Part shown: one piece after another, positions 5,331-64,000 of the stretch
How the letters are laid out: every line of letters starts with the position of its first letter
How positions within the stretch are numbered: the first letter of the stretch is position 1
Assembly: GCA_963842525.1 (NCBI GenBank)
Contig: CAWJGT010000019.1
Coordinates: forward strand, 192,001 to 256,000
DNA from: an uncultured Holophagales bacterium
GTDB lineage: Bacteria > Acidobacteriota > Thermoanaerobaculia > Multivoradales > UBA5704
Reading direction: 5' to 3'
Length of the DNA: 64,000 nt
The notes under the pieces: generated by a model
The model's input: the letters and a program-made list of their open reading frames with translations, nothing else
What the model was told of the DNA's origin: nothing
Database searches by the model: none
Program-made: the position numbers and the translations under genes

Positions 5331-5490
5331 GGGTGTCACGCCTGCTGACTGTCCTTCTGCGCGGCCGGAGCGCCCTGTTGCGGCGCCGAGCGGACCGCGT
5401 TCAGCGACGGCAAGGCCTGGCTCGTCGTGGAGCGCCGCTGCCTGATGGACGGTCTGCCCTGCGGGGCCTCCTGATTGACCTGCTTCGTCG

Positions 5491-30200: not shown

Positions 30201-33200
30201 GAGGTCGAGGCCGCGCTGCTGGAGCATCCGGGGATCGGCGCCTGCGCGGTCCTCGCGCAGGGGACGCAAGGCCTGGTCGCCTATATGGTGCCGTCCGGGG
30301 AGGTCATTCCGACATCCGCCGAGCTCCGCAGCTTCCTTGCGGCGAAGCTGCCGTCCCCGGTGGTGCCTTCAGCGTTCGTGACGCTCGACGCCCTGCCGCT
30401 CAGCCCCGTCGGCAAGCTGGACCGCCGCGCCCTGGCCGCCCTGGCGCCGCCTGTCGAGGCCTCCGTCGGCGCGCACCTGCCGCCGCGCACCGCCACCGAG
30501 GAGATCGTCGCCGCGGTCTGGGCGGATCTCCTGGACGTCGAGCGCGTGGGCGTGGACGACAACTTCTTTGCGCTCGGCGGCCACTCCCTGCTCGGCATTC
30601 AGATGCTGTCGCGCGTGCGCACCCTGCTGCGGGTCGAGCTGCCGGTGCGCGCCCTGTTCGAGGAGCCGGCGCTCGCGGGCTTCGCTGCCCGCGTGGACTC
30701 GGTATTGGCGGCATCGGCGGCATCGGCGGCATCGCGCGAGGGCGCCGCCGCCCCACCGCCCCCCCTCCAGAGGATCGACCGGCACGGGGACCGGGAGGGC
30801 GGAGGGAGACTGCCGCTCTCCTTCGCCCAGGAGCGGCTCTGGTTCCTCGAGCAGCTCGAGCCGGGAACCGCGTTCTACAACATTCCCTCGGCCACCCGCT
30901 TCAACGGGCCTCTGCGGGTCGGCGTCCTGCGCCGCGGCTTCGCGGAGATCGTGCGCCGCCACGAGTCGCTGCGCACCACGTTCGGCGCGGCGCACGGCCA
31001 GCCCTTCCAGGTCATCGCACCCGACGTTGCCCTGCAGACGCCGGAGATGCCGATGATCGACCTGTCGGCGCTCGACGGCAGGGCACGTGACGCGGAGCTG
31101 CTGCGCCTGGCCACCGACGAGGTGCGGCGCCCGTTCGACCTGCAGCGCGGCCCGCTCGTGCGCGCTCCGCTCTTCCGGCTGGCGGCGTACGACCACGTCC
31201 TGGTGTCGACCCTGCACCACATCATCTCCGACGGCTGGTCGACGACCGTCCTGATCCGCGAGATGGCGGCGCTCTACGAGGCTTTCTCCGCGGGCCGTCC
31301 GTCGCCCCTGCCGGAGCTGCCCATCCAGTATGCCGACTACGCGGTCTGGCAGCGCAGCCACCTCCAGGGCGAGGCGCTCGCGGCCGAGGTTGCCTGGTGG
31401 CGCCGGCGCCTGGCCGGGCTGACGAGCCTCCAGCTCCCGGCCGACCGGCCGCGCCCGCCGGTCGAGACCTTCCGCGGCCGGCGGCGCCCCGCCGGGCTGT
31501 CGGGCGGGCTCACCGGCGCTCTCCACGAGCTGGGCCGCGGCGAGGGGGTCACGCTCTTCATGACTCTGCTCGCGGCCTTCCAGACGATGCTCCTGCGCTA
31601 CAGCGGGCAGACCGATCTGGCGGTGGGCTCGCCGATCGCCAACCGCAACCGCAGCGAGACCGAAGAGGTGATCGGCTTCTTCGCCAACACCCTGGTGCTG
31701 CGCACCGACCTGTCCGGAGATCCGACCTTCCGCGAGCTGCTGGCGCGGGTGCGGGAGGTGACCCTGGGGGCCTACGCGCACGAGAACCTGCCGTTCGAGA
31801 AGATCGTCCTGGAGCTCCAGCCGGAGCGCGACATGAGCCGCAATCCGCTGTTCCAGGTGATGTGCGTGCTGCAGAACCAGCCCTGGAAGGCGGCGCCGCT
31901 GCGCGACCTGGAGATCTCGGGGCTGAGCCTCGATACGGCGACGGCGAAGTTCGACCTGACCCTGTTCTGGCAGGAGACGGGGGGCGTGCTCGGCGCCCTC
32001 CTCGAGCACAACACCGACCTGTTCAACGATGCCACGGCGTGGCGGATGTACGAGCACTGCGTGGCCATCCTGCGCGCCGGCGCGGAAGACCCGGACCGCC
32101 GGGTCGGCGCCCTGCCGCTGCTCGCCGAGGCCGAGCGGCACCAGCTCCTGCGGGAGTGGAGCGAGCCCACCGGCTCAACCGAATGGAAGGGCCGCTGCGT
32201 ACATCATCAGGTGGAGGAGCAGGCTGCTCGCACGCCTGGAAGGGTGGCGGTGATCGACGGCGAGCGGTCGCTGACCTACGCCGGGCTCGACGCCCGGGCC
32301 AACCGCCTGGCGCACGGCCTGCGCCGGCGCGGGGTGGGGCCGGAGTCGCTGGTGGGCATCTGCGTCGAGCGTTCGCTGGAGATGCTGGTCGCCGCCCTGG
32401 CGGTGGCCAAGGCGGGCGGCGCGCTGGTGGCGCTCGATCCGGCCTATCCGCGCGAGCGGCTGGCCACCATCATCGACGACGCCGGCCTCGCCGTGCTGCT
32501 GACCCAGGAGGAGCTGCTCACCAGCTTCCCGGAGCACGAGCACATCGCACTCCTCTATGAGCGCGGGGCCGACCTGTTCCCGGAGGAGAGCGAGAGCACC
32601 CCGGAGCGCGGGGTCGATCTCGACAATCCGATCTATGCCATCTACACCTCGGGCTCGACGGGCCAGCCGAAAGGGATCGTGGTCACCCACCGGGCCTTCT
32701 CCAGCCTGATCGACTGGCAGCTCCGGGCGGCGGACCTGCGGCCGGGAGCGAAGACGGTGGCGCTCTCCACCTTCGGCTTCTGCGTCAGCTTCCAGGAGAT
32801 GTTCTCCTGCTGGTGCTCGGGCGGCACCCTGGTGGTGGCCGACGAGATGACGCGGCGGGATGTCGGCGGTCTGGGCGCCTTCCTGGAGGAGCACGGGATC
32901 GAGCGCCTGCACCTGCCGTTTGCCGCGCTCAAGCATCTGGCAGAGGCGGCGGACCGGGAGCGGCTGCCCGCTGGGCTGCGGGAGGTGATCACGGCGGGCG
33001 AGCAGCTCCAGGTCACGCCGGCGGTGCGGTCGCTCTTCGAGCGGCTGCCCGGGTGCGTCCTGTCGAACCAGTACGGGGCGTCGGAGACGCACGTCATCAG
33101 CGCCCTGACGCTCACCGGGGAGCCCGCGGCCTGGCCGGCCATCCCGCCGGTCGGGCGGCCGGTGGACCGGGTGCGGATCCACCTGCTCGCTCCAGGCCTC

Positions 33201-34043
33201 CAGCCGGTTCCGGTGGGCGTGGCGGGCGAGCTGTATGCAGGGGGCGTCTGCCTGCCGCGGTGTTATCTGAACGACCCTGTGCTGACGGCGCAGAAGCTGG
33301 TGCCCGATCCGTACGGGGCGGAGCCTGGAGCCCGCCTGTATCGCACGGGTGACGCGGCGCGCTACCTCTCCGGCGGCCGGATCGTGTATCATGGCCGCAT
33401 TGACACCCAGGTCAAGGTCCGGGGGTTCCGGATCGAATTGGGTGAGGTGGAGACGGTGCTGGCGCGCCACCCTCGGGTGCGCGACGCCGCGGTGGTAGCA
33501 AAGGCGGCCAAGGCGGACGGTCACCGGCTGGTGGCCTATGTAGTGGCCCATTCGGAGTCGGCGGATTTCGGTGAAATCCGCGCCTACCTCAAGCAGAAGC
33601 TCCCCGAGTTCATGGTTCCGGCGGCGTTCGTCGAGGTGTTGGCGCTACCGCTCAACGCCAACGGCAAGCTCGACCTGACGGCGTTACCCGAGCCGGGCGT
33701 GCAGGCCGCGCGAGCCTATGTGGCGCCGCGCACGGAGATCGAGCAGTTGCTGGTGAAGATCTACGCGGACCTCCTGAAGATCGAGAGAGTAGGGATCCAC
33801 GACAACTTCTTCGAGCTGGGCGGGCACTCCCTGCTGGGCACGCGGCTGATGGCGCAGATCCGGGAGACGGTCGGCATCGACCTCAGGGTGCGGATGCTCT
33901 TCGAGCTCCCGACGGTCGCGGAGATGGGGGAGGCGGTCGCGCAGGCGCTGATGGAGGAGACCGACGACGAGGCGCTGGCGGCGGTGCTGGCGGAGCTCGA
34001 GCGGGAAGAGATGTCCGCAGAGGTTTTGGAGGGGGCTGCATGA
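24222..34043 (+). CDS. NRPS 1: C-A-T, C-A-T, C-A(Pro-clade, D235C)-T
   Basis: Three HHI(I/V)SDGWS condensation motifs, three YTSGSTGxPKG, three GGHSL carrier motifs; GGAGG RBS; no E, MT or TE domain. Confidence 0.96.
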   Translation: MVEKSRILADLSADQRHALLERLREKKLAQRGPGIRPRPVGLHPLPLAFAQERLWFLDQLEKGSAAYNLLFGVRLTGRLDRRALRRTLAELVRRHESLRTTFGQREGRPFQAVAPPAAPPLPWIDLSGVPASAGEAELLRVLRDEAAYPYDLECGPLLRCKLLRFRPDDHALAVAMHHIISDGWSMAVFLREMSDLYTAFAAGRPSPLPEPEIQYADFAVWQREHLSGATLETELAWWRERLAGLPVLELPTDRPRPARQSQRGAEARLTLDAAVAGRVHELGHREGATPFMVLLAVWKALLFRSTGQIDFAVGSPVANREHAEVAGLIGFFVNTLVLRTDLAGGPGFRELLGRVRRTSIAAYDHTALPFEKLVEHLQPERSGGNPLFQVLCHMQNQPWPELRIGDVRLAILDLGTQVAKLDLSLGWREEDGRLEGRLEYATDLYETASVERMLHCYGTLLDGALDDLERDVTELPLLDEAERQQLLREATGPAHARHAGQDRIEGRCIHHRIEEHAARTPEAPAVEGLTYRELNERANRLAWWLRAQGIGLEARVGVLFERSPEMVVAALGVLKAGAAYVPLDPSYPAERLAFLATDSQARLGSTDRPVIVTREGLAGLLPEDLARRARIVRLDADAANAADTAELARQPPGNPPPRATPGNLAYVVYTSGSTGQPKGAAVPHAALSRLVDWYAQAFGATPADRASWIASPAFDPAVREVWSCLACGAWLRIPDEGVRSEPARLAAWLADEGITLTYMPAPLAQAALPGPWPEDLRLRVFTVGGDRLVRRPPAGAPFQVYNLYGPAECTVNATCGRVEPHGTDLPSLGAPIAGARVYVVDPWGGLTPAGVPGEIWIGGWGVGRGYLDRPSWTAERFVPDAFGTAGDTAGERLYRTGDLGRRRPGGPLEFLGRIDHQVKVRGVRIELGEVEAALHAHPGVAACAVLVRDTSLVAYLVPADGAGPNSADLRRHLARRLPAAMVPAAFVVLDALPLNPNGKVDRRALARLEPPAGEAHAAAGAHVPPRTATEEILAAVWADLLGVERVGAHDDFFALGGHSLLGIQVLSRLRTLFGVELPVRALFEEPALAGFAARMDAVLAGLHESAVPAAAPLERVAREGRLPLSFAQERLWFLERLEPGTAFYNVPSATRFRGPLEVDVLRRGFAELVWRHEALRTTFDEENGRPFQVIAPAVAAEMPLIDLSALPGPLFDAELLRQATAEARRPFDLRRGPLVRTSLFRLAPQDHVLVSTLHHIVSDGWSMTVLIREMAALYEAFCDGRPSPLPELPVQYADYALWQRGWLQGAVLAAEIEWWRARLAGVPALQLPTDRPRLPVETFRGRQRPAGISAEMTGALHELSRREGVTLFMTLLAAFQTMLLRYSGQTDLAVGSPIANRNRSETEGVIGFFVNTLVLRTDLSCDPTFRKLLARVREVALGAYAHENLPFEKIVLELQPERDTSRNPLFQVMCVLQNQPWKAVRLRDLEISGLSLDTATAKLDLTLSWSTAGDALGALLEHNTDLFDDATAWRMYACCVAVLRAGVEDPDCRLGALPLLGEAERRQLLAEAAGPPCAWDGRCVHYRMEEQAARFPEAPAVDGLTYGELNARANRLAWWLRAQGAGPEMRVAVLLERSPAMVVAWLGVLKAGAAYVPLDPFYPADRLAWFLADSQAGVARPLVVTREGLAGLLPALQELPEDTVGRACILRLDADADELTRYGPGNPPALAMPENLAYVIYTSGSTGRPKGVAVAHSTVSRMADWHREAFGVTPADVATQVTSPAFDPAVWEIWSCLCCGASLRVPDDDVRAAPARLIAWMADQGITFGYMPTPLAEAAFAVQPWPAHLRLRVFVLGGDRLHRRPAADVPFAVYSLYGVTEGTVNSAGGRVAPHGRELPSIGRPIAGVRIHLLDSRGELVPAGVPGEVWIGGGLARGYLGRPDWTAERFLPDPFSGEPGERLYRTGDLARQRPGGDLDFLGRIDHQVKVRGLRIEPGEVEAALLEHPGIGACAVLAQGTQGLVAYMVPSGEVIPTSAELRSFLAAKLPSPVVPSAFVTLDALPLSPVGKLDRRALAALAPPVEASVGAHLPPRTATEEIVAAVWADLLDVERVGVDDNFFALGGHSLLGIQMLSRVRTLLRVELPVRALFEEPALAGFAARVDSVLAASAASAASREGAAAPPPPLQRIDRHGDREGGGRLPLSFAQERLWFLEQLEPGTAFYNIPSATRFNGPLRVGVLRRGFAEIVRRHESLRTTFGAAHGQPFQVIAPDVALQTPEMPMIDLSALDGRARDAELLRLATDEVRRPFDLQRGPLVRAPLFRLAAYDHVLVSTLHHIISDGWSTTVLIREMAALYEAFSAGRPSPLPELPIQYADYAVWQRSHLQGEALAAEVAWWRRRLAGLTSLQLPADRPRPPVETFRGRRRPAGLSGGLTGALHELGRGEGVTLFMTLLAAFQTMLLRYSGQTDLAVGSPIANRNRSETEEVIGFFANTLVLRTDLSGDPTFRELLARVREVTLGAYAHENLPFEKIVLELQPERDMSRNPLFQVMCVLQNQPWKAAPLRDLEISGLSLDTATAKFDLTLFWQETGGVLGALLEHNTDLFNDATAWRMYEHCVAILRAGAEDPDRRVGALPLLAEAERHQLLREWSEPTGSTEWKGRCVHHQVEEQAARTPGRVAVIDGERSLTYAGLDARANRLAHGLRRRGVGPESLVGICVERSLEMLVAALAVAKAGGALVALDPAYPRERLATIIDDAGLAVLLTQEELLTSFPEHEHIALLYERGADLFPEESESTPERGVDLDNPIYAIYTSGSTGQPKGIVVTHRAFSSLIDWQLRAADLRPGAKTVALSTFGFCVSFQEMFSCWCSGGTLVVADEMTRRDVGGLGAFLEEHGIERLHLPFAALKHLAEAADRERLPAGLREVITAGEQLQVTPAVRSLFERLPGCVLSNQYGASETHVISALTLTGEPAAWPAIPPVGRPVDRVRIHLLAPGLQPVPVGVAGELYAGGVCLPRCYLNDPVLTAQKLVPDPYGAEPGARLYRTGDAARYLSGGRIVYHGRIDTQVKVRGFRIELGEVETVLARHPRVRDAAVVAKAAKADGHRLVAYVVAHSESADFGEIRAYLKQKLPEFMVPAAFVEVLALPLNANGKLDLTALPEPGVQAARAYVAPRTEIEQLLVKIYADLLKIERVGIHDNFFELGGHSLLGTRLMAQIRETVGIDLRVRMLFELPTVAEMGEAVAQALMEETDDEALAAVLAELEREEMSAEVLEGAA

Positions 34044-37000
34044 ACGAGCGAGCCAGGGTCCTGGAGGGTCTGTCCACCGACCAGCGCCATGCGCTGCTCG
34101 AGCGGCTGCGGGAGAAGAAGCTCGCGCAGCGCGGGCCGGGCATCCGGCCGCGGCCGGCCGGTCTGCGCACCTTGCCGCTGTCTTTCGCCCAGGAGCGCCT
34201 CTGGTTCCTCGACCAGCTCGAGAAGGGGTCCGCCACCTACAACCTCCTGTTCGGGGTGCGCCTGACCGGCCGCCTCGACCGCCGTGCCCTGCAGCGCACC
34301 CTGGTCGAGCTGGTGCGCCGCCACGAGTCCCTGCGCACCACCTTCGGCCAGCGGGAGGGCCGGGCCTTCCAGACCATCGCGCCCTCGGCGGCGCCGCCCC
34401 TTCCGTGGATCGACGTCGCCGGTCTGCCGGAGGCCGCGGGCGCGGCGGAGCTGCTGCGCATCCTGCGCGACGAGGCGCTGCTGCCCTTCGACCTGGAGCG
34501 CGGCCCGCTGCTGCGCTGCAAGCTCCTCCGCTTCAGCCCCGAGGACCATGCGCTCGCCGTGGCGATGCACCACATCGTCTCCGACGGCTGGTCGATGGCG
34601 GTCTTCCTGCGCGAGATGTCGGACCTGTATGCCGCCTTTGCCGCCGGCCGGCCTTCGCCGCTGCCGGAGCCGGGGCTCCAGTACGCCGACTTCGCCGTCT
34701 GGCAGCGCGAGCACCTGAGCGGTGCGGCCCTCGACGCCGAGATCGCCTGGTGGCGGCAGCGGCTGGACGGGCTGCCGGTTCTCGAGCTGCCGGTCGACCG
34801 GCCGCGGCCGGCGCGGCAGAGCCACCGCGGCGAGTCGGTGCGGCTGACCCTGGACCCCGCCGTGACCGCGCGCATCTACGCGCTCGGGCATCGCGAGGGG
34901 GCCACCCCGTTCATGATCCTGCTTGCCGTCTGGAAGGCGCTGCTCCTCCGCACCACGGGGCAGACCGACTTCGCGGTGGGCTCCCCGGTGGCCAACCGCG
35001 AGCACGCCGAGATCGCGAACCTGATCGGGTTTTTCGTCAACACGCTGGTGCTGCGCACCGACCTGTCGGGCGGCCCCGGCTTCCGCGCGCTGCTCGGCCG
35101 GGTACGGGCGACGTCGATCGCCGCCTACGACCATGCGGAGCTGCCGTTCGAGAAGCTTGTGGAGCATCTGCAGCCCGAGCGCTCCGGGGGGCGCAATCCG
35201 CTCGTCCAGGTGATCTGCGTGATGCAGAACCATTCCTGGCCGGAGCTGCGGATCGGCGACGTCCAGCTCAAGCTCCTGGAATTCGGGACCCAGATCGCGA
35301 AGTTCAACCTGAGCCTGGGCTGGAGCGAGGAGGACGGCCGGCTCGAGGGCGGGCTGGAGTACGCCACCGACCTCTACGAAGCCGCGACCATCGAGCGCAT
35401 GCTGGGCCACTACCGGATGCTTCTCGACGGCGTGCTCGACGACCTGGAGACGGATGTCACGGAGCTCCCGCTGTTCGCCGCCGCCGAACGGCGGCAGCTC
35501 CTCGGCGAAGCGAGCGGGCCGGCGCATGACCGGCATGCCGGGATCGACGGCCGCTGCATCCACCACCGGATCGAGGAGCAAGCGGCGCGGACGCCCGAGG
35601 CGCCCGCCGTCGAGGACCTGACCTACCGGGAGCTCAACGCGCGCGCCAACCGGCTGGCGTGGTGGCTGCGCGCCCACGGGGTCGGCCCCGAGGCGCGGGT
35701 CGCCGTGCTCTTCGAGCGCTCGCCCGAGATGGTGGTGGCCGCGCTGGGAGCGTTCAAGGCCGGGGCGGCCTATGTGCCGCTCGATCCCACCTACCCGGCG
35801 GAGCGCCTCGGCTTCCTCGCCACCGATTCGCAGGCAGGCGTGGACAGGCCGGTGATCGTGACCCGCGAGGATCTGGTCAGGCTGCTGCCGGAGGAGACGC
35901 AGCAACGGGCGCGGATCATCCGCCTGGACGCCGACGCAGAGGATCTGGCCCGCCAGGAGGCCGGCAATCCGCCGTCCTCCGTCACGCCCGAGAACCTCTG
36001 CTACATCATCTACACCTCGGGATCGACCGGCCGGCCCAAAGGCTCGGCGCTCCCGCATGCCACCCTCTCCCGCCTGGTGGACTGGCACCGCGAGGCGTTC
36101 GGCGTGACGCCGGCCGACCGTGCGAGCTGGATCGCGAGCCCGGCCTTCGACCCCGCGGTGTGGGAGGTCTGGTCGTGCCTCTGCTGTGGCGCCTGGCTGC
36201 GCATCCCGGACGAGCGCGTGCGCTCCGAGCCCGCGCGGCTGGCGGCCTGGCTCGCGGACGAGGGCATCACCTTCGCCTACATGCCGACGCCGCTCGCCGA
36301 GGCGGTGTTCCCCGGGCCCTGGCCGGAGGACCTGCGGCTGCGGGCGCTCACCCTCGGCGGCGACCGCCTGGTGCGCCGGCCTCCCGCCGAGGCGACGTTC
36401 GAGGTCTACAACCTCTACGGGCCGGCCGAGTGCACCGTGAACTCGACCTTCGGCCTGGTCGAGCCGCACGGGACGGACCTGCCCCATCTGGGCACCCCGG
36501 TCGCGGGGGTACGCGTCTACGTGGCCGATCCCTGGGGAAGCCTCGCTCCGGCCGGCATTCCCGGCGAGATCTGGGTCGGCGGCGCCGGGATCGGCCGTGG
36601 TTATCTCGACCGCCCGGTCTGGACGGCCGAGCGCTTCGTGCCCGACGGATTCGGTGATGGAATCGGAGAGAGGCTCTATCGCACCGGCGACCTGGGGCGG
36701 CGCCGGCCGGGCGGGCCCCTCGAATTCCTCGGCCGCATCGACCACCAGGTCAAGATCCGCGGCATCCGGGTGGAGCTGGGCGAGGTCGAGGCGATCCTGC
36801 AGGAGCATCCCGAGGTCGGCACCTGTGTGGTGATTGCACGGCAGGACCGGCCGGGGGACAAGGCCCTGGTGGCGTATCTGACGCGGGCCGAGGGAGTCGC
36901 AGAGGGACCGGATCCGGGCGAGCTCCGCCGCCATCTTGCGACGCGTCTGCCGGCGGCCATGGTGCCCTCTGCGTTCGTCGTGCTCGACGCCCTGCCGCTC

Positions 37001-40000
37001 AACCCCAACGGCAAGGTGGACCGCCGCGCGTTGGCGCGCCTGGAGCCGCCGGCCGACGACGCCCGCGCCTCGTCTGCCGGCGAGCACGTGCCGCCGCGCA
37101 CCGCCACGGAGGAGATCCTCGCCGCCATCTGGGCCGACCTCCTGGGGGTCGAGCGCGTGGGCGTCCACGACAGCTTCTTCGATCTGGGCGGGCACTCGCT
37201 GCTCGGCGTCCAGGTCCTGTCGCGCCTGCGCACCCTGTTCCGGGTCGAGCTGTCCGTCCGCACCCTGTTCGAGGAGCCGACGCTGGAGGGCTTCGCGGCC
37301 CAGGTGGACGCGGCGCTCCGCGCGAGCGCCGGCACCGCGGCGCCGCCGCTTGAGCGGGTGCCCCGTCAGGATCGCCAGAGAGTAGTGCTCTCCTTCGCCC
37401 AGGAGCGGCTCTGGTTCCTGGAGCAGCTCGAGCCGGGGACGGCCTTCTACAACATCCCTGCGGCCACGCGCCTCGCCGGGCCGTTGCGGGTGGACGTCCT
37501 GCGCGGCGGTTTCGCGGAGCTGGTGCGCCGTCACGAGTCGCTGCGTACCACCTTCGGCGAAGAGCACGGCCAGGCCTTCCAGGTCATCGCCCCGGCCGCT
37601 GCCGCGGAAATGCCGTTGATCGACCTGGCCTCGCTGCCGCAGGTACCGGACAACCCGGTGCGTGGCGCCGAGCTGCTGCGCCTGGCCACCGCCGAGGTGC
37701 GGCGCTCGTTCGACCTGCAGCGCGGCCCACTCGTCCGCACGACCCTCTTCCGGGTGACGCCGGAGGACCATGTCCTGGTGTCGACCATGCACCACATCGT
37801 CTCCGACGGCTGGTCGATGACCGTCCTCGTCCGCGAGATGGCGGAGCTCTACGGCGCTTTCGCCGCGGGGCTCCCGTCCCCGCTTCCCGAGCTGCCCATC
37901 CAGTACGCCGACTATGCGGTCTGGCAGCGCAGCTATCTCCAGGGGGTGGTGCTGGAGGCCGAGATCGAATGGTGGCGTGCGCGCCTGGCCGGGGTGCCGG
38001 CGCTTCAGCTCCCCACCGACCGGCCGCGTCCGCCGGTCGAGACCTTCCGCGGCCGGCAGCGCCCCTCGGGGCTGTCGGCCGGGCTCACCGGCGCTCTCCA
38101 GGAGCTGAGCCGCGGCGAGGGCGTGAGCCTCTTCATGACCCTGCTCGCCGCCTTCCAGACGATGCTCTTCCGCTACAGCGGGCAGACCGACCTGGCGGTG
38201 GGCTCGCCGATCGCCAACCGTAACCGCAGCGAGACCGAAGAGGTGATCGGCTTCTTCGCCAACACCCTGGTTTTGCGCACCGACCTGTCCGGTGATCCGA
38301 GCTTCCGCGAGTTGCTGGCGCGGGTGCGGGAGGTGACCCTGGGGGCCTACGCGCACGAGAACCTGCCGTTCGAAAAGATCGTCATGGAGCTCCAGCCGGA
38401 CCGCGACATGAGCCGCAACCCGCTCTTCCAGGCCATGTGCGTGCTGCAGAACCAGCCGTTCAGGGCGGCGCCGCTGCGCGACCTGGAGATCTCGGGGCTG
38501 AGCCTCGATACGGCGACGGCGAAGTTCGACCTGACCCTCTTCTGGCAGGAGACGGGGGGCGTGCTCAGCGCTCTCCTGGAGCACAACACCGACCTGTTCG
38601 ACGACGCCACGGCATGGCGGATGTACGAGCACTGCGTGGCGATCCTGCGTGCCGGCGTCGAGGACCCGGACCAGCGGGTTGGCGCTCTGCCGCTGCTCGC
38701 CGAGGCCGAGCGGCATCAGCTCCTGCGCGAGTGGAGCGGACCCGCAAGCTCGACAGATTGGGCCGGCCGCTGCGTCCATCACCAGGTGGAGGAGCAGGTG
38801 GCGCGCACACCCGGCGGGGTGGCGGTGATCGACGGCGGACGGTCGCTGACCTACGCCGAGCTCCACGCCCGCGCCAACCGCCTGGCGCACGGCCTGCGCC
38901 GGCACGGTGTGGGGCCGGAGTCGCTGGTGGGCATCTGCGTCGAGCGCTCGCTGGAGATGGTCGTGGCGGGCCTGGCGGTGGCGAAGGCGGGCGGCGCCCT
39001 GGTGGCGCTCGATCCGGCCTATCCGCGCGAGCGGCTGGCCACCATCATCGATGACGCGGGCCTCGCCGTGCTGCTGACCCAGGAGGCGCTGCTGGAGAGC
39101 TTCCCCCAGCATGAGCACATCGCCCTCCTCTATGAGCAGGGGGCCGACCTGTTCCCGGAGGAGAGCACGGCGAATCCGGACAGCGGGGTCGACCTCGATC
39201 ATCCCATCTATGCGATCTACACCTCGGGCTCGACGGGGCAGCCGAAGGGGATCGTGGTGACTCACCGCGCGTTCGCCAGCCTGCTCGCCTGGCAACTGGA
39301 TGCGCCGGGCCTGCGTCCGGGGGCGCGGACGGTGGCGCTCTCCACCTTCGGCTTCTGCGTCAGCTTTCAGGAGATGCTCTCCTCCTGGTGCTCGGGCGGC
39401 ACGCTGGTGGTGGCCGACGAGATGACGCGGCGCGACATCCTCGGGCTGGCCTCGTTCCTGGAGGCGTACGGTATCGAGCGGCTGCACCTGCCGTTCGCCG
39501 CGCTCAAGCACCTGGCCGAGGCCTTCTCGGCCCAGACGGCGGGCGGGGGCCTGCTGCCGTCGCGTCTGACCGAGGTGATCACGGCGGGCGAGCAGCTCCA
39601 GGTCACGCCGGCGGTGCGATTGCTGTTCGAGCGCCTGCCCGGATGCGCGCTGTCGAACCAGTACGGTGCGTCGGAGACGCACGTGATCAGCGCTCTGACG
39701 CTCCCGGGCGCGCCCGGGGAGTGGCCGGCGATCCCGCCGGTGGGGCGGCCGGTGGCGCGGGTGCGCATCCACCTGCTCGATGCGGGCCTCCAGCCGGTGC
39801 CGGTCGGTGTGGCCGGCGAGCTCTTCGCGGGAGGCGTCTGCCCGCCGCGATGCTATCTGAACGATCCGGTGCTGACGGCGCAGAAGCTGGTGCCCGATCC
39901 GTACAGCGCGGAGCCCGGGGCGCGTCTCTACCGCACGGGCGACGCGGCGCGCTACCTGGCCGACGGCCGCATCGAGTACTACGGCCGGATCGACACCCAG

Positions 40001-43600: not shown

Positions 43601-46600
43601 CCGCCGCTTCCTGGCGCAGCGGCTCCCGGCGGCCATGGTGCCCTCCGGCTTCGTGATGCTCGAGGCCCTCCCCTTGAGCCCCAATGGCAAGGTCGACCGC
43701 CGCGCTCTAGCGCGCCGGGAGCCTCCCACCGACGCGGCGCGGGCCTCGGCCGCCTGCGAGCACGTGCCGCCGCGCACCCCCACCCAGGAGATCCTCGCAG
43801 CGGTCTGGTCGGAGCTCCTCGGGGCCGAGCGCGTCGGCGCCAGCGACAGCTTCTTCGAGCTGGGCGGCCACTCCCTGCTCGGCGTCCAGGTCCTGTCGCG
43901 CCTGCGCACCCTGCTGCGGGTCGAGCTGCCGGTCCGCACCCTGTTCGAGGAGCCGACGCTCGAGGGCTTCGCGGCCCGAGTGGACATGGCGCTCCGAGAA
44001 GGAGCTGCGACCGCGGCGCCTCCGCTCCAGCAGGTCCCACGGGAAGAGCACCAAGGGAGATCACCGCTCTCCTTCGCCCAGGAGCGGCTCTGGTTCCTCG
44101 AGCGGCTGCAGCCGGGCACGGCCTTCTACAACATCCCTTCCGCCACGCGCTTCGCGGGGCCGCTGCGGGTCGACGTCCTGCGCCGCGGCTTCGCGGAGCT
44201 GGTGCGCCGCCACGAGTCGCTGCGCACCACCTTCGGCGAGGAGAGCGGCCGGGCCTTCCAGGCCGTCGCGCCCGCTGGCTCCGCCGAGATGCCGTTGATC
44301 GATCTGGCCTCTCTGCCGCAGGCACCGGACAACCCGCTGCGTGAAGCCGAGCTGCTGCGCTGCGCCACCGGCGAGGCGAGGCGCCCCTTCGACCTCCAGC
44401 GCGGCCCGCTCGTCCGCGCGCCGCTCTTCCGGCTCGCGCCGCAGGACCATGTCCTGGTGGCGACCATGCACCACATCGTCTCCGACGGCTGGTCCATGAC
44501 CGTCCTGATCCGCGAGATGGCGACGCTCTACGAGGCGTTCTGCGACGGTCTTCCGTCGCCCCTGCCCGCGCTGCCCGTCCAGTACGCCGACTACGCCGCC
44601 TGGCAGCGCGGCTGGCTCCAGGGAGAGGTGCTTGCGGCCGAGGTCGCGTGGTGGCGCGAGCGCCTGGCCGGGCTGGAGGTCCTCCAGCTCCCGACCGACC
44701 GCCCGCGCCCGCCGGTCGAGACCTTCCGCGGCCGGCAGCGCACCGCCTGGGTCTCGGCCGAGCTCACCCGCGGCCTCCACGAGCTGAGCCGGCGCGAGGG
44801 GGTCAGCCTTTTCATGACCCTGCTCGCCGCCTTCCAGACGCTGCTCTTCCGCTACAGCGGGCAGACCGACCTGCCGGTGGGCTCGCCCATCGCCAACCGC
44901 AACCGCAGCGAGACCGAAGGGGTTATTGGTTTCTTCGTCAACACCCTGGTGCTGCGCACCGACCTGTCCGGCGAGCCGACGTTCCGCGAGCTGCTGGCAC
45001 GGGTGCGGGAGGTGACCCTGGGGGCCTACGCCCACGAGAGCCTCCCCTTCGAGAAGGTCGTCCTGGAGCTCCAGCCGGAGCGCGACATGAGCCGCAACCC
45101 GCTCTTCCAGGTGATGTGCGTGCTGCAGAACCAGCCGCTCAAGGCGACGCCGCTGCGCGGCCTGGAGATCTCGGGGCTCGGCCTCGATACGGCGACGGCG
45201 AAGTTCGACCTGACCCTGGCCTGGAGCGAGGCGGGGGGCGCCCTCGGCGCGCTGCTGGAGCACAACACCGACCTGTTCGACGACGCCACGGCCTGGCGGA
45301 TGTACGAGCACTGCGTCGCCCTCCTCCGCGCCGGCGTGGAGGATCCGGACCGCCGGGTCGGCGCCCTGCCGCTCCTCGGCGAGGCCGAGCGCCGCCAGCT
45401 CCTCGCCGAGGCGGCAGGGCCAAGCTGGAGTGGGGAGGGCGGATGCGTCCACCACCGGGTGGAGGAGCATGCGGCGCGTACCCCCGAATCCCCGGCCGTG
45501 GAAGACCTCACCTACCGGGATCTCAACGAGCGCGCCAACCGGCTGGCCGGGTGGCTGCGCGCGCACGGGGTCGGTCCCGAGGCGCGGGTCGCGGTGCTGC
45601 TGGAGCGCTCGCCGGAGATCGTGGTGGCCGCGCTGGGCGTGCTCAAGGCGGGAGCGGCGTACGTGCCGCTCGACCCCTCCTATCCGGCGGAGCGTCTGGC
45701 CTTCCTCCTGGCCGACTCGCAGGCGGGCCCCAGGGGGATAGACCGGACGGACCGGCCGGTGGTGGTGACGCTCGAGGGATTGACCCGGCTCCTGCCTGAT
45801 CAGACGGCGCGGATCGTCCGCCTTGACGCCGACGCCGGCGAGCTGGCCCGCTACGGCCCCGGCAACCCGCCGCCGTTCGCCGCACCGGATAACCTGGCCT
45901 ACGTGGTCTACACCTCGGGCTCGACCGGCCAGCCCAAGGGCGCAATGGTCTCTCATGCCAATCTCGCTCACCTGGTCGACTGGCACCGGGAGGCGTTCCA
46001 CCTGACTCCGGCCGACCGCACGACCCAGGTCGCCAACCCGGCCTTTGATGCCGCGGTCTGGGAGGTCTGGTCGTGCCTCGCCTGCGGGGCCTGGATGCGC
46101 ATCCCGGAGGAGGCCGTGCGCGCCGACCCCGCGCGTCTGGTCGCCTGGTTGGCCGCCGCGGAGATCACCGTCAGCTTCCTCCCCACGCCGCTGGCCGAAG
46201 CCGCGCTCGCCGCGGTCATCCCGGAATGGCCGGCGGGGATGCGCCTGCGGGCTCTTCTCACCGGAGGCGACCGCCTGGTCCGCCGGCCGCCTGCAGGGGC
46301 GGCCTTCGAAATGATCAACTGCTACGGGCCCGCCGAGGCGGCGGTGGTCTCCACCTGGGGCCGCCTGGCGCCTGATGCGGCAGGAATACCGTCGATCGGT
46401 CTGCCGCTCCCTCGCGCGCGGGTCCATCTCGTCGACCCCTGGGGGGACCTGGCTCCGGCCGGCGTGCCCGGGGAGATCTGGATCGGCGGACGCGGGCTCG
46501 GGCGCGGCTACGTGGGCCGGCCGGACTGGACCGCCGAGCGTTTCATGCCGGACCCGCTCGGCGGCGGACAGGGCGAGAGGCTCTACCGCACCGGCGACCT

Positions 46601-49600
46601 GGCGCGGCGCCGGCCGGGCGGGGAGATCGAGTTCCTCGGGCGCATCGACCAGCAGGTCAAGGTCCGCGGCGTCCGCATCGAGCTGGGAGAGGTGGAGGCG
46701 GCTCTCCTGGAGCATCCGGAGGTCGGCGGCTGTGCCGTGATCCTGCGGCAGGATCGGCCGGGGGAGCGCGGCCTGGTCGCCTACGTGGTGCCGGCGAGCG
46801 CCTCCCTGGTCTCACCCTCCGACCTCCGCCGCTTCCTGGCAGAGAGGCTGCCGGTCGCCCTGGTGCCCTCGGCCTTCGTGGCGCTCGAAGCCCTGCCGCT
46901 CAACCCGAACGGCAAAGTGGACCGCCGCGCCCTGGCGCGTCTGGAGGCGCCCGCCGGCTCCACGTCCGCCGCCGAGCACGTACCGCCGCGCACCGTCACG
47001 GAAGAGATCGTCGCGGCCATCTGGGCCGACCTCCTGGGGGCCGAGCGCGTGGGTATCGACGACGACTTCTTCGCGCTGGGCGGCCACTCGCTGCTGGGGA
47101 TCCAGGTCCTGTCGCGCCTGCGCACCGCCTTCGGCGTGGAGCTGCCGGTGCGCGCGCTCTTCGAGGAGCCGGTGCTCGAGGGCTTCTCGGCTCATATCGA
47201 CGCGACGTTGCGCGACAGCGCCGCCGTTGCGGCGCCACCCCTCGAAAGGACGCCGCGCACGGGGCGGCTGCCGCTCTCCTTCGCCCAGGAGCGGCTCTGG
47301 TTCCTCGAGCAGCTCGAGCCGGGCACGGCCTTCTACAACATTCCCTCCGTCACCCGCTTCCGCGGGCCGCTGCGGGTCGACGTCCTGCGCCGCGGCTTCG
47401 CGGAGATCATGCGCCGCCACGAGTCGCTGCGCACCACCTTCGGCGAGGAGCACGGCCAGGCCTTCCAGGTCATCGTGTCCGAGGTCCCGTCGGAGATGCC
47501 GGTGATCGATCTGGCGGCGCTTCCCGGCACGGCGCGCCTGTCGCGCCTGTCGCAGGATACCGAGCTGCTGCGCCTCGCCACCGGCGAGGTCCGGAGCCCG
47601 TTCGATCTGCAGCGCGGCCGGCTCGTCCGTGCGCTGCTCATCCGCGTGGCGCCGCAGGACCACGTCCTGGTCGCGACCATGCACCACATCATCTCCGATG
47701 GCTGGTCGATGACCGTCCTGATCCGCGAGATGGGCACGCTCTACGAGGCCTTCTCCGGCGAGCGCCCGTCCCCCCTGCCCGAGCTGCCCGTCCAGTACGC
47801 CGACTATGCCGCCTGGCAGCGCGGCTGTCTCCAGGGGGAGGTGCTCGCGGCCGAGGTCGAGTGGTGGCGGGCGCGTCTGACCGGGGTGACAGCGCTCCAG
47901 CTCCCGACCGACCGGCCGCGTCCGCCGGTCGAGACCTTCCGCGGCCGGCAGCGCTCCGTCCGGCTCCCGGCCGAGCTCGCCGGAGCTCTCCACGCGCTGA
48001 GCCGCGGCGAAGGGGTGAGCCTCTTCATGACCCTGCTCGCCGCCTTCCAGACGACGCTCTTCCGCTACAGCGGCCAGACCGATCTGGCGGTGGGCTCGCC
48101 GATCGCCAACCGCAACCGCAGCGAGACCGAAGGGGTCATCGGCTTCTTCGCCAACACCCTGGTGCTACGCACCAACCTGTCCGGCGATCCGACCTTTCGC
48201 GAGGTGCTGGCGCGGGTGCGTGAGGTGACTCTCGGCGCCTACGCCCACGAAAACCTCCCCTTCGAAAAGGTTGTGATGGAGCTCCAGCCGGAGCGCGACA
48301 TGAGCCGCAATCCGCTGTTCCAGGTGATGTGCGTCCTCCAGAACCAGCCGTGGAAGGCGGCGCCGTTGCGCGACCTGGAGATCTCGGGGCTCAGCCTCGA
48401 CACGGCGACGGCGAAGTTCGACCTGACCTTGTTCTGGCAGGAGGTGGGAGGCACCCTCGGCGGACTGCTGGAGCACAACACCGACCTGTTCGACGACGCC
48501 ACGGCGTGGCGGATGTACGAGCACTGCGTGGCCATCCTGCGCGCCGGCGCGCAGGACCCGGACCAGCGGGTCGGCGCTCTGCCGCTGCTCGCCGAGGCCG
48601 AGCGGCACCAGCTCCTGCGCGAGTGGAGCGGGCCGGCCAGCGCGCCAGACTGGGTGGGCCGCTGCATCCATCACCAGGTCGAGGAGCAGGTGGCGCGTAC
48701 GCCCGGGGCCACAGCCGTGATCGACGGCGAGCGGTCGCTGACCTACGCCGAGCTCAACGCCCGGGCCAACCGCTTGGCCCATGGCCTGCGCCGGCGCGGG
48801 GTGGGGCCGGAGTCGTTGGTGGGCATCTGCGTCGAGCGCTCCCTGGAGATGGTGGTGGCAGGCCTGGCGGTGGCCAAAGCGGGCGGCGCGCTGGTCGCGC
48901 TAGACCCGGCCTATCCGCGCGAGCGGCTGGCCACGATCATCGACGACGCGGGCCTGACTGTGCTGTTGACCCAGGAGGCGCTGCTGGAGAGCTTCCCGCA
49001 GCATGCGCACACTGCACTCCTGTATGAGCGGGGGGCCGACCTGTTCCCGGAGGAGAACACGGCCGATCCAGACAGCGGCGTCGATCTGGACAACCCGATC
49101 TATGCCATCTACACGTCGGGCTCGACGGGCCAGCCGAAGGGGATCGTGGTCACCCACCGGGCTTTCTCCAGCCTGCTCGCCTGGCAACTCAACGCGCCAG
49201 GGCTGCGTCCGGGGACGCGGACGGTGGCGTTGTCGACCTTCGGCTTCTGCGTCAGCTTCCAGGAGATGTTCTCCTCCTGGTGCTCGGGCGGCATGCTGGT
49301 GGTGGCCGACGAGATGACACGGCGCGACATCATCGGGCTGGGCGCCTTCCTGGAGGAATACGGCATCGAGCGGTTGCACCTGCCGTTCGCCGCCCTCAAG
49401 CACCTGGCCGAAGCCTTCTCTGGTCAGAACCGACTGCCGTCGCGTCTGACGGAGGTGATCACGGCGGGCGAACAGCTCCAGGTCACGCCGGCGGTCCGGT
49501 CGCTGTTCGAGCGGCTGCCCGGGTGCGCGCTGTCGAACCAGTATGGGGCGTCGGAGACGCACGTGATCAGCGCTCTGACGCTGGCGGGCGCGCCCGCGGA

Positions 49601-50513
49601 GTGGCCGGCGATCCCGCCGGTGGGGCGGCCGGTGGCGCGGGTGCGCATCCACCTGCTCGATCCGGGCCTCCAGCCGGTGCCGGTGTGTGTGGCCGGTGAT
49701 CTCTATGCGGGCGGCGTCTGCCCACCTCGGTGCTATCTGAACGATCCGGTGCTGACGGCGCAGAAGCTGGTGCCCGATCCGTACGGCCTGGAGCCGGGCT
49801 CGCGCCTCTATCGCACCGGCGACGCGGCGCGCCATCTGGCCGACGGCAGCATCGAGTACCACGGCCGGATCGACACCCAGGTGAAGATCCGTGGCTTCCG
49901 GATCGAGCTCGGCGAGGTCGAGACCGTTCTGGCCCGCCAGCCGCGGGTGCGTGATGCTGCCGTGGTGGCAAAGCCGGGCGGTGCGGACGGGCACCGGCTC
50001 GTCGCCTACGTGGTGCCGCAGACGGAGCCGGCGAATTTCGACGAAATCCGGACCTACCTCAAGCAGACGTTGCCCGAGTTCATGGTGCCGTCGGCGTTCG
50101 TCGAGATGCGGGAGCTGCCGCTGAACGCCAACGGCAAGCTCGACCAGGCGGCGCTGCCCGAGCCGGACCCTCAGTTCCTGACGCGGGTCTACGTGGCCCC
50201 GCGCACCCCGGTCGAGGAGACGCTGGCCGGCCTCTACGCGAGCCTGTTGAAGGTCGAGAAGGTGGGGATCTACGACAACTTCTTCGAGCTGGGGGGGCAC
50301 TCCCTGCTCGGCACGCGCCTGATGGCCCAGGTGCGCGAGGTCTTCGGCGTCGAGATCAAGGTGCGGACGCTCTTCGAGGCGCCCACTGTCGCCGATCTGG
50401 CCGTGGCGGTCGCGCGGAAGCTCATGGACGACACCGACGACGAGGCCCTGGCGGCGGTATTCGCCGAGATCGAGCGGGAAGAGATTCTCGCGAGGAGCGA
50501 GGGCCATGGCTGA
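40654..50513 (+). CDS. NRPS 3: C-A-T, C-A(Leu-like)-T, C-A(Pro-clade, D235C)-T, interrupted by two frameshifts (about 42120 and 43372)
   Basis: ORFs 40654..43491, 42248..44344 and 43245..50513 join into one three-module protein. The shifts lie in a CTCTCT run and a G6 run. Confidence 0.9.
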
Positions 50514-62500: not shown

Positions 62501-64000
62501 CGGACCTGGCCCTGCACGTCCTCGATCGGGGTGCCCGTCCGGCGCCCCTCGGTGTGGCGGGGGAGATCTGCGTGGGCGGGGCGGGCCTGGCCCAGGGGTA
62601 CCTCGGCCGGCCCGAGCTGACGGCGGAGCGGTTCGTCCCCGATCCGTTCGGTGGTCTCCGGGGCGAGCCCGGGGCACGGCTCTACCGCTCGGGCGACCTG
62701 GCGCGCCGCCTGCCGGACGGGGAGCTGGAGTACCTGGGGCGCATCGACCACCAGGTCAAGATCCGCGGCTTCCGCATCGAGCTGGGCGAGATCGAGACGG
62801 CCTTGTGCCGGCACCCGGCCGTGCGCGAGGCCGTGGTCCTGGCGCGCGAGGCCGGCGGCGAGAGGCAGCTCGTGGCCTACGTGGTGGCCGATCCGCAGGC
62901 CGAGCCGGGCTTGGGCGAGCTGCGCTCGTTCGCATCCGCCCAGCTTCCCGACTACATGCTCCCGTCCGCCCTCGTAACGCTGCCGTCGCTGCCGCTGACC
63001 GCCCACGGCAAGGTGGACCGCCGGGCTCTGCCCGCGCCCGACCGGGTGCGGCCGGACCGCAAAGGCGAGCGCATGGCGCCGCGCAACGAGATGGAGGCCT
63101 TTCTGGCCGGTCTGTTCCGCGAGTCTCTGGATCTGGAGGAGGTCGGCGTCGACGACGACTTCTTCGAGCTGGGCGGGAACTCGATCTCGGGCGCGATCCT
63201 GATCAACCGCCTCCAGGAGGCGATCTCCGAGATCGTCCAGGTCGTCGTCATCTTCGACGCGCCGACCGTGGCACGGCTCGGCGAATACCTGGTACGGGAG
63301 CATCCTCGGGCGGTGGCGCGCTTCTGGGGCGAAGAGCTGTTGATCGGGACAGGCGGCCCGCAGGCCCGGCGGGTCGACGAGGCTTCGCTCGCGGACCTGC
63401 GCTCGCGCATCCAGCCGCTGGCGCCCCTCCCGCAGACATCGATCGCGAGCAAGAACCCACCGGCCGTCTTCGTGCTGGCGCCGCCGCGCTCGGGCACGAC
63501 GCTGCTGCGGGTCATGCTCGGCGGGCACCCGAAGCTGTTCGCTCCGCCGGAGTTGGAGCTGCTGTCGTTCAACACCCTGGCCGAGCGGCGGGCCGCCTTC
63601 TCCGGCCGCGACAGCTTCTGGCTCGAGGGCGCGGTGCGGGCGGTCATGGAGATCCGCGGCTGCACGGCCGAGGAGGCCAACGCCCTGCTCGACGAGCTGG
63701 AGAGCCGGGGACTGACCACCGCGGAGCTCTATGGACAGATGCAGGGCTGGCTCGGCGAGCGGAGGTTGGTGGACAAGACGCCGTCCTATGCGCTGGACCC
63801 GGCGGTGCTGCGGCGGGCCGAGGAGGTCTTCGACCGGCCGCTGTACATCCACCTGAGCCGGCATCCGCTGGGCATGATCCGCTCCTTCGAGGAGGCCAAG
63901 CTCGACCAGATTTTCTTCCGCCAGGAGCACCCGTACGCGCGGCGCGAGCTGGCGGAGATGATCTGGACGCTGAGCCACGACAACATCGTCGGCTTCCTGC
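50506..64000 (+). CDS. Hybrid NRPS-PKS 4 (runs off the window): C-A(Lys2-like)-T-KS-AT-ACP-C-A(Gly)-T-C-A(Thr)-T-sulfotransferase
   Basis: Absent from the ORF track (no stop). ATG 50506 overlaps the NRPS 3 stop and the frame held at every point I checked to 64000. Motifs: HHIVSDG, HDPLQRD (about 52630), [18 protein letters not shown] (about 54390-54930), [30 protein letters not shown] (Gly code DILQLGVVWK), [18 protein letters not shown] (Thr code DFWNIGMVHK), [13 protein letters not shown] (63481). Confidence 0.95.

What the first reader, a model, noticed from the sequence alone, without database searches (positions are those of the whole stretch)
32190..50160. Three proline-clade A domains with the invariant Asp235 replaced by Cys
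Seen: the last A domain of NRPS 1, 2 and 3 reads [11 protein letters not shown] where FDVSxQE is expected (TGC at 32781, 39356 and 49248). Each also has altered A5 ([11 protein letters not shown]), A6 (GGVC(L/P)PRCYL instead of GxGLARGYL) and A7 (YRTGDA), yet keeps the P-loop and the A10 lysine. My manual code is CVQHIAQVIK, against DVQ(F/L)IAHVVK for Pro. Established: Asp235 (GrsA numbering) binds the alpha-ammonium and is lost in A domains for hydroxy, keto and aryl acids. Three copies rule out a sequencing error. Inference: a proline-derived pocket adapted to a monomer without a charged alpha-amine, such as a hydroxy acid, an oxidised or unsaturated proline analogue, or an N-N or N-O heterocycle, inserted every second or third position.
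Basis: partly seen in the sequence, partly recalled or inferred. Interest (0 to 1): 0.9.

Follow-up and report, generated by a model that had tools for sequence, protein, structure and literature searches.

The report
Proline-type NRPS adenylation domains with Cys235
Three peptide-synthetase loading domains descended from proline-loading domains carry a cysteine where nearly all such domains have the aspartate that holds the amino group. The same change is conserved in a small group of soil Acidobacteriota, which points to an as yet unidentified building block.

Summary
[11 protein letters not shown] occurs three times (Cys codons at 32781, 39356 and 49248), and an alignment to a solved structure places the Cys on the Asp235 column. 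The ten-residue code is CVQHIAQVIK.

It is neither an error nor a one-off. The same code, CVQ[H/Y]xAQV[I/V]K, is found in 20 distinct domains. These form one clade (support 1.0) nested among proline-code domains. Named records place them only in Acidobacteriota metagenome genomes, at 51-76% identity. All 20 keep every catalytic motif, so the domain is probably active.

The changes specific to the clade lie around the alpha-amine site (S233G, D235C, P325A) and in the pocket (F278H/Y).

No A* module has a ketoreductase. The condensation domains in front of A* are 80-84% identical to those in front of ordinary amino-acid modules. No accessory gene is shared between clusters.

The substrate cannot be decided by computation. 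My best reading is a proline-like monomer whose alpha-nitrogen is not bound as an ammonium. A small hydroxy acid and plain proline remain rivals. I found no publication of this code or motif. I class it as a new variant of a known kind.

The parts
24222..34043 (+). NRPS 1 (3273 aa): C-A-T, C-A-T, C-A*-T. The first two A codes are DPRMTGLVNK and DPWMVGLVNK.
   Evidence: ORF list, translation, Pfam, domain map, codes
32322..33818 (+). A* domain 1, code CVQHIAQVIK. Cys235 codon TGC at 32781-32783; His278 codon at 32910-32912.
34040..40657 (+). NRPS 2 (2205 aa): C-A(DPWMTGLVNK)-T, C-A*-T.
38897..40429 (+). A* domain 2, used as the reference in all analyses, code CVQHIAQVIK. Cys235 codon at 39356-39358; His278 codon at 39485-39487.
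40654..50513 (+). NRPS 3: C-A(DPWYFGCVI., broken by two frameshifts near 42092-42117 and 43371)-T, C-A(DAWLLGCVVK)-T, C-A*-T.
48789..50291 (+). A* domain 3, code CVQHIAQVIK. Cys235 codon at 49248-49250; His278 codon at 49377-49379.
30807..32150 (+). Condensation domain in front of A* 1. HHIISDGWS is intact and the N-terminal motif is [10 protein letters not shown].
37379..38725 (+). Condensation domain in front of A* 2.
47265..48617 (+). Condensation domain in front of A* 3.
33729..33938 (+). Carrier (T) domain after A* 1, followed by a short acidic C-terminal tail. No ketoreductase or epimerase lies between A* and T.
40340..40549 (+). Carrier (T) domain after A* 2.
50202..50411 (+). Carrier (T) domain after A* 3.
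50506..64000 (+). Start of NRPS/PKS 4, which runs to C19:266619 outside the window (8037 aa). Order: C-A(DPRHLVLRAK)-T-KS-AT-T-C-A(Gly code)-T-C-A(Thr code)-T-sulfotransferase... The same cluster continues to about C19:300411.

Best explanation
A* is a catalytically active adenylation domain that evolved from a proline-loading domain. Its alpha-nitrogen binding site has been rebuilt (S233G, D235C, P325A) and one pocket wall has been made polar (F278 to His, or Tyr in two members). I infer that it adenylates a compact, proline-shaped monomer whose alpha-nitrogen is weakly basic or neutral and loads it on its own carrier domain. Candidates are a cyclic imino or enamino acid, a hydrazino or N-O ring acid, or a thia- or oxa-proline. 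An ordinary L-donor-type condensation domain then joins the monomer by an amide bond. What is shown: the ancestry, the position of the Cys, the conservation of the pocket and of all catalytic motifs, the absence of a ketoreductase, and the ordinary condensation domains. What is inferred: that the substrate differs from proline, and that its alpha-substituent is a non-cationic nitrogen rather than a hydroxyl.
For: The Cys lies on the Asp235 column. In the own genome, 215 of 224 full A domains have Asp, 4 have Cys, 3 have Asn and 2 have Ala. Among 1180 A domains of 271 related proteins, 1160 have Asp and 13 have Cys, and all 13 carry the code CVQ[H/Y]xAQVxK. The 20 distinct A* sequences form one clade with support 1.0, nested among DVQF... 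codes. They keep V236 and Q239, which PMC12283262 reports (passage) as frequent among the 71 characterised Pro domains it examined (25 signatures, n = 59). The pocket code is unchanged between members that are only 51-54% identical overall (L014 and L015). All catalytic residues of A3, A5, A7, A8 and A10 are invariant in 20 of 20. By contrast, a Gly235 proline-code domain in P0245 has also lost its P-loop. The clade-specific changes sit at 233, 235, 325 and 278. The own genome also has 9 ordinary proline-code domains, so a second, conserved form suggests a second substrate. The condensation domains in front of A* are 80-84% identical to those in front of Asp235 modules, including a Leu-like one, with HHxxxDG intact. 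That favours an amine-type acceptor. Published passages state that Asp235 is replaced in hydroxy-, keto- and aryl-acid domains (PMC11253843; PMC13643306).
Against: No substrate was tested or modelled. The structure tools here return no coordinates, so pocket geometry is taken from the GrsA literature only. The published proline analogues I could check keep Asp: the azetidine carboxylate codes DVQCLSEVTK and DMQLVSQQVK (passage of PMC12283262). From recall, pipecolate and piperazate domains also keep Asp. No precursor-making gene is shared by the flanks of the C19 and C34 clusters, by two clusters of a same-family genome, or within 10 kb of A* in 12 other loci. An exotic monomer would therefore need genes elsewhere. 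No ordinary proline code was seen among about 109 other A domains (my tally) in A*-bearing assembly lines. That would also fit A* simply standing in for proline. The similarity of the condensation domains could reflect recombination within the cluster rather than shared chemistry.
Confidence: 0.42

Rival explanations
1. A* loads plain L-proline. The Cys, perhaps as a thiolate or through the backbone carbonyls at 324 and 330, is enough to hold the secondary amine. On this reading the clade is just a lineage-specific version of a proline domain.
For: The pocket code is otherwise a proline code (V236, Q239, I299, A301, Q322, V330). The condensation domains are ordinary. No precursor gene is conserved near the clusters. 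No ordinary proline-code domain was seen in the sequenced parts of A*-bearing assembly lines (0 of about 109 other domains by my tally). McyG shows that an Asp at this position is not strictly required to bind an amino acid (passage of PMC11253843).
Against: The own genome keeps 9 canonical Asp235 proline-code domains beside 5 A* copies. Four positions around the amine site and pocket changed together and then stayed fixed over 51-76% identity. Neutral drift would not do this. F278 to His or Tyr introduces a polar group that proline does not need.
Confidence: 0.25
2. A* loads a small alpha-hydroxy acid directly, such as lactate, glycolate or 2-hydroxybutyrate. The upstream condensation domain then forms an ester, so the product is a depsipeptide with an ester at every second or third position. 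A keto acid with reduction in trans is a less likely variant.
For: Hydroxy-acid domains carry a small neutral residue at 235 (Ala in engineered TycA, Gly in EnSyn A1). Keto-acid domains replace both Asp235 and the A5 proline, and LgrA P483A gains keto-acid activity (passages of PMC11253843). A* has both D235C and P325A (19 of 20 Ala, 1 Ser). Such acids are primary metabolites, which fits the lack of precursor genes.
Against: No ketoreductase is present in any A* module: 3 here and 12 loci, all C-A*-T. That argues against keto acids. The condensation domains in front of A* are 80-84% identical to those serving amino-acid modules. The rest of the proline pocket is kept intact, which an acyclic acid would not require. 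P325 is absent in 46 of 317 Asp235 domains, so it is not diagnostic.
Confidence: 0.2
3. A* is catalytically dead or purely structural. Its carrier domain is either loaded in trans or skipped.
For: Loss of Asp235 is often read as loss of amino-acid binding. Several NRPS genes of this assembly carry frameshifts.
Against: All catalytic motifs are invariant in 20 of 20 clade members, and the pocket code is conserved. A truly decayed Gly235 relative (P0245) has also lost its P-loop. The frameshifts lie outside the three A* domains of the window.
Confidence: 0.08
4. The Cys codon is an assembly or sequencing artefact.
For: The assembly shows indel-like frameshifts, one of them at a run of six G.
Against: The change is a substitution, not an indel. 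It is present in five copies in this genome, in a same-family genome (3 copies), in 12 loci of named metagenome genomes, and in further database proteins.
Confidence: 0.01

Closest known systems
Proline-activating NRPS A domains (codes DVQ[F/L]IAHVVK and relatives; in this genome DVQFVAQV.K, DVQFIAHVVK)
   Same: Same clade in the tree. Same V236 and Q239, I/V299, A301, Q/H322 and V330, the same SETHV stretch in A5, the same domain length and the same module layout C-A-T.
   Different: Asp235 is Cys, Ser233 is Gly, Phe278 is His or Tyr, and the A5 Pro is Ala. GELx[L/I/V] is GELxA. A10 reads PLNANGKLD instead of PLTPSGKVD.
Alpha-keto-acid-selecting A domains of depsipeptide synthetases (StsA/CesA type; known to me here only through passages of PMC11253843 and PMC13643306)
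   Same: Asp235 is replaced by an uncharged residue, and the proline of the A5 YGPxE motif is replaced.
   Different: Those domains carry Ile or another hydrophobic residue at 235 and Met at the A5 position. They sit in A-KR-T modules and are not of proline ancestry. A* modules have no ketoreductase.
Alpha-hydroxy-acid A domains (EnSyn A1; engineered TycA for phenyllactate, PDB 7YWK; passages of PMC11253843)
   Same: A small neutral residue at position 235. Binding relies on backbone carbonyls near A5.
   Different: Those have Gly or Ala rather than Cys, and they are fungal or engineered. No natural bacterial member with a proline-type pocket is described in the passages I read.
McyG A domain (Val at the 235 position; passage of PMC11253843)
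   Same: It shows that an A domain can work without the Asp.
   Different: It is a loading-module domain for phenylpropanoid-type starters with an unrelated pocket. It is not an elongation module.

Membership tests
NRPS adenylation domain (ANL superfamily, PF00501 + PF13193) | Pfam AMP-binding and AMP-binding_C matches above the curated cut-off | tested here: met
   Three AMP-binding stretches in P0001 and two each in P0002 and P0003, with E-values from 1e-149 to 1e-224.
NRPS adenylation domain (ANL superfamily, PF00501 + PF13193) | Catalytic core motifs: A3 P-loop, A5 Glu, A7 YxTGD, A8 GRxDxQVKxRG, A10 Lys | tested here: met
   Invariant in 20 of 20 A* clade members.
Canonical alpha-amino-acid A domain | Asp at GrsA position 235, which binds the alpha-ammonium | tested here: not met
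   Cys in all three window domains and in 20 of 20 clade members.
Canonical alpha-amino-acid A domain | Lys at position 517 | tested here: met
   NGK is present in 20 of 20.
Proline-specific A domain clade | Val236 and Gln239, and phylogenetic placement with proline codes | tested here: met
   The code is CVQ.... The clade is nested among DVQF... codes, with clade support 1.0 and the enclosing node at 0.85. PMC12283262 passage.
Proline-specific A domain clade | Activates L-proline | not testable with these tools
   This needs an enzyme assay.
Alpha-keto-acid A domain (depsipeptide synthetase type) | Hydrophobic residue in place of Asp235 | tested here: inconclusive
   Cys is uncharged but is not the Ile, Val or Met class described in the literature.
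Alpha-keto-acid A domain (depsipeptide synthetase type) | A5 proline replaced | tested here: met
   Ala in 19 of 20 and Ser in 1 of 20. However, 46 of 317 Asp235 domains also lack this Pro, so the feature is weak.
Alpha-keto-acid A domain (depsipeptide synthetase type) | Ketoreductase domain in the same module | tested here: not met
   The layout is C-A*-T with no gap larger than 150 aa in the three window modules, and C-A-T in 12 other loci.
Beta-amino-acid A domains (codes starting VD) | Asp shifted to position 236 | tested here: not met
   Position 236 is Val. True VD... codes were recovered elsewhere by the same extraction.
Aryl-acid A domains (DhbE type) | Asn235 and the aryl-type A5 motif | tested here: not met
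   A5 is [10 protein letters not shown], the amino-acid type. Motif as given in a PMC11253843 passage.

The most novel reading that the evidence does not exclude
A* defines a new substrate class for elongation-module A domains: a five-membered ring acid whose alpha-nitrogen is sp2 or otherwise non-basic. One example is delta-1-pyrroline-2-carboxylate, the imino or 'keto-acid' form of proline, which would be acylated through its enamine tautomer to give dehydroproline residues. Another is an N-N or N-O ring acid. On this reading, Cys235 and His/Tyr278 replace the salt bridge with neutral hydrogen bonds. Soil Acidobacteriota would then make peptides with a backbone unit not yet seen in nonribosomal peptides.
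Probability: 0.25. Interest if true: 0.8.

Novelty: new variant of a known kind. Interest (0 to 1): 0.6.

Why it matters
Asp235 is the most conserved specificity residue of NRPS A domains. A 2026 preprint (passage) puts it at about 92% of sequences. Prediction tools treat its loss as a sign of a non-amino-acid substrate. This case is a natural, conserved and apparently active clade in which a proline pocket lost the Asp to Cys, inside ordinary elongation modules. It comes from uncultured, NRPS-rich Acidobacteriota; this genome alone has at least 224 full A domains in 9.95 Mb. If the substrate is new, it adds a building block and a new code entry for genome mining. If the substrate is proline, it shows that the Asp is dispensable for a secondary amine, which matters for A-domain engineering. 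Either answer can be reached with a simple didomain assay.

Tried and rejected
The exhaustive representative search with the A* domain ranked giant NRPSs by the summed score of many A domains. Only 3 of its 150 listed proteins carry the motif, so it gave no census of the clade.

Sequencing runs: no RNA holder was listed. Six soil-metagenome runs hold small shares, at most 0.13 of sampled words. Laying four of them gave only fragments. Depth at the Cys codon 39356 was close to zero, and no piece bridged either frameshift site. This says nothing for or against the finding.

I searched for a shared accessory gene that could make the monomer.
- Flanks of the C19 and C34 clusters share only one 33-residue match.
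- Twelve loci are NRPS from end to end.
- Flanks and gaps of two clusters of a same-family genome share nothing relevant with G000.
- One gap there encodes a MacB-type permease and a flavin amine oxidase. The oxidase has a twin-arginine-like leader and no close homologue in G000; the best phmmer E-value was 5e-9, on an unrelated contig position. I rejected it as a conserved partner.
- Two tblastn runs for that oxidase returned nothing.

I considered the A5 Pro-to-Ala change as a keto-acid marker and rejected it as non-diagnostic. I considered the A6 cysteines as a possible metal site and rejected that because they are not conserved.

I did not run structure prediction. The tool returns no coordinates, so it could not show pocket geometry.

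Literature searches:
- The code string gave 0 papers.
- For the motif, D235C or Cys235, the motif string had no occurrence in the 15 listed papers, and none of those 15 (of 119) was about A domains.
- Asp235 plus cysteine plus adenylation gave 5 papers, none reporting a Cys235 domain in the passages I read.
- Thermoanaerobaculia plus nonribosomal gave 2 papers, seen as listing only.
- The Holophagae/Acanthopleuribacter search was seen as listing only.
- The Acidobacteria plus Stachelhaus search was seen as listing only, apart from the papers read.
- Alonzo et al. 2020 is not held. I know it only through the review's passages.

Supplementary tables were not opened because they are closed. Tables S2 and S11 of PMC12283262 list the proline signatures and could hold a non-Asp code I could not see.

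Full report
**The observation.** A degenerate pattern for FGFCVSFQE hits the window three times, at 32772, 39347 and 49239, and nowhere in 100 shuffles. The long + strand ORFs 24222-34043, 34040-40657 and 43245-50513 translate to multi-module NRPSs. Pfam sees only Condensation, AMP-binding, AMP-binding_C and PP-binding in them. The last A domain of each protein reads [11 protein letters not shown] ... [13 protein letters not shown] ... GGVC(L/P)PRCYL ... YRTGDA ... A HMMER alignment to solved structures puts the Cys opposite the Asp of the FDxS motif in both A domains of linear gramicidin synthetase.

**The code and its check.** I took the ten code columns from an alignment anchored on the second A* domain, which gave CVQHIAQVIK. 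The same columns give ordinary codes for the other domains of the genome. One is DAWTVAAVCK, which matches 8 of the 10 GrsA residues listed in the review PMC11253843. The column assignment therefore holds, including position 278.

**How unusual it is.**
- The window is C19:192001-256000 of a 9.95-Mb, 34-contig genome.
- Of its 224 full-length A domains, 215 have Asp at 235, 4 have Cys, 3 have Asn and 2 have Ala. The four Cys domains are the three in the window and one on contig C34.
- A pattern scan found a fifth A* copy on C14. It is broken over several frames.
- Among 1180 full A domains in the 271 proteins returned by the two protein searches, 1160 have Asp, 13 have Cys, 6 have Val and 1 has Gly. 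All 13 Cys domains read CVQ[H/Y]xAQVxK. The six Val domains have VD... or VS... codes.
- The Gly case (P0245) has also lost its P-loop and looks decayed.

**Relatives.**
- A scan of one genome per prokaryotic species returned 31 loci. Twelve of them (L005-L015 and L028) carry CVQH[I/M]AQV[I/V]K, at 51-76% identity to the query.
- All twelve are metagenome-assembled genomes named Thermoanaerobaculia, Thermoanaerobaculum, Holophagales, Holophagae or Acidobacteriota. The other 19 loci carry ordinary Asp codes or gave no full A-domain code.
- The 90%-clustered protein database adds P0004, P0010, P0015, P0059, P0060 and P0119.
- In a sample of 401 genomes of the window's phylum, the DNA motif occurs in 3: the own genome, one of two other genomes of the same family, and one more distant genome. 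The clade is therefore real but patchy.

**Ancestry.** In a FastTree of 342 distinct A domains, the 20 distinct A* sequences are monophyletic with support 1.0. Every enclosing node up to 42 tips holds almost only DVQF... codes, two other Asp codes aside. The 342 comprise the own genome, selected database proteins and the fetched loci. PMC12283262 reports Val236 and Gln239 as frequent among the 71 characterised proline domains it examined (25 signatures, n = 59; passage). A* keeps both.

**What changed.** I compared the 20 A* sequences with 21 proline-code relatives.
- Fixed or nearly fixed changes in A*: S233G (20/20), D235C (20/20), F278H (18) or F278Y (2), V282A, Q285K, and P325A (19) or P325S (1).
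- GELx[L/I/V] becomes GELxA (20/20), and A10 PLTPSGKVD becomes PLNANGKLD.
- According to the GrsA structure as summarised in the review, position 235 and the backbone around 324-330 hold the alpha-amino group. Three of the changes therefore ring that site, and a fourth makes a pocket wall polar.
YRTGD is simply the normal A7. Neither is a clade feature.
- All catalytic residues of A3, A5, A7, A8 and A10 are invariant in 20 of 20. That argues for an active enzyme under selection.

**Module context.**
- In the window and in the twelve loci, every A* sits in a plain C-A*-T module. There is no ketoreductase, so the keto-acid route of depsipeptide synthetases is unlikely. The review and the 2026 dolastatin 15 paper describe that route as loss of Asp235 plus a KR.
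- The review also notes that keto-acid domains replace the A5 proline and that LgrA P483A gains keto-acid activity. A* has that change too. In my set, however, 46 of 317 Asp235 domains also lack the proline (Thr-code domains have Ile, Cys-code domains have Ala), so it is weak evidence.
- The condensation domains in front of the three A* domains are 82-85% identical to each other. They are 80-84% identical to those in front of two Asp235 modules of the same proteins, with HHxxxDG intact and only 14 consistently different columns.
- By their [10 protein letters not shown] start, they and the domains after A* are of the type that takes L-donors. That motif reading is from recall. This favours amide chemistry with an amine-type acceptor, although recombination within the cluster could give the same picture.

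**Supply of the monomer.**
- The cluster runs from C19:216222 to about C19:300411. Its flanks hold a large NAD-glutamate dehydrogenase and a CBM9/DUF5916 protein upstream, and nothing telling downstream.
- The flanks of the C19 and C34 clusters share no gene. Nor do the flanks and gaps of two A*-bearing clusters in the same-family genome G365. A flavin amine oxidase found there has an export signal and no G000 counterpart.
- A* is preceded and followed by many different codes: Gln, Val, Ala and Ser types before it, and Thr, Val and Ala types after it.
- It therefore behaves like a general building block drawn from the cell's own metabolism or from genes elsewhere.
- Among about 109 other A domains (my tally) in A*-bearing assembly lines, I saw no ordinary proline code. 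I count this as mild support for A* taking proline's place, either with proline itself or with something made from it.

**Verdict.** The sequence facts are solid. The function is not settled.
- A proline-shaped monomer with a non-cationic alpha-nitrogen, joined by an amide: 0.42.
- Plain proline: 0.25.
- A small hydroxy acid, or less likely a keto acid: 0.20.
- A dead domain: 0.08.
- An artefact: 0.01.

No paper in the searchable library holds the code or the motif, and all named carriers are uncultured. Supplementary tables and non-open journals could not be checked. I class it as a new variant of a known kind. Its interest is moderate to high, because one didomain assay would decide between the readings.

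Noticed in passing
window 42092-42117 and about 43371 (a run of six G); also C19:264692-266619 and C19:272889-273076, and C14:99230-100731: NRPS 3 is split over three frames inside its first A domain (code DPWYFGCVI.). The NRPS4/5 and NRPS5/6 junctions and the fifth A* copy on C14 also change frame. These are either indel errors of the assembly or decaying genes.
   Followed up: partly
window about 63460-64000 and onward (NRPS4 residues 4319-4592); L002 (NRPS5 residues 903-1175); G365 C1 at 91630, 595529, 611387 and 626951: Sulfotransferase domains are embedded after the carrier domain of Ser- or Thr-code modules, in 6 of 6 cases seen. This suggests on-line O-sulfation of Ser/Thr, either kept in the product or used as a leaving group to make dehydro residues.
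   Followed up: partly
window 25857, 29070, 35669 (A domains of NRPS 1 and 2) and 42092-43375: There is a family of A domains with codes DPRMTGLVNK, DPWMVGLVNK, DPWMTGLVNK and DPWYFGCVI. that I cannot assign to a substrate. They alternate with A* in the first three proteins.
   Followed up: no
G000 C3:1563518, C9:1375362, C9:1571949: Three A domains have Asn at position 235 in otherwise ordinary Gly-type (NILQLG[LV][VI]WK) and Leu-type (NAWLLGHVVK) codes. G365 has NLWFLGIVVK between its two A* modules. This is a second kind of Asp235 loss in the same organisms.
   Followed up: no
L004:143-5812 (C19:294742-300411): The last protein of the cluster is a C-A-T unit fused to a major-facilitator transporter domain (MFS_1, residues 1449-1788).
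   Followed up: no
whole genome G000: There are at least 224 full A domains (320 A-domain hits) in 9.95 Mb, spread over 10 contigs. This is an exceptionally NRPS-rich genome.
   Followed up: partly
window 8663-11302 and 11488-14064; 15915-20795; 20911-24054: Upstream of the cluster lie two paralogous VWA plus Big_7 proteins, a 1626-aa NAD-specific glutamate dehydrogenase, and a CBM9/DUF5916 protein. I found no evident link to the NRPS.
   Followed up: no
P0245 residues about 4950-5548: This is a proline-code domain with Gly at 235 (GVQFITQVVK) whose P-loop is degenerate. It is an example of what a decayed relative looks like.
   Followed up: partly
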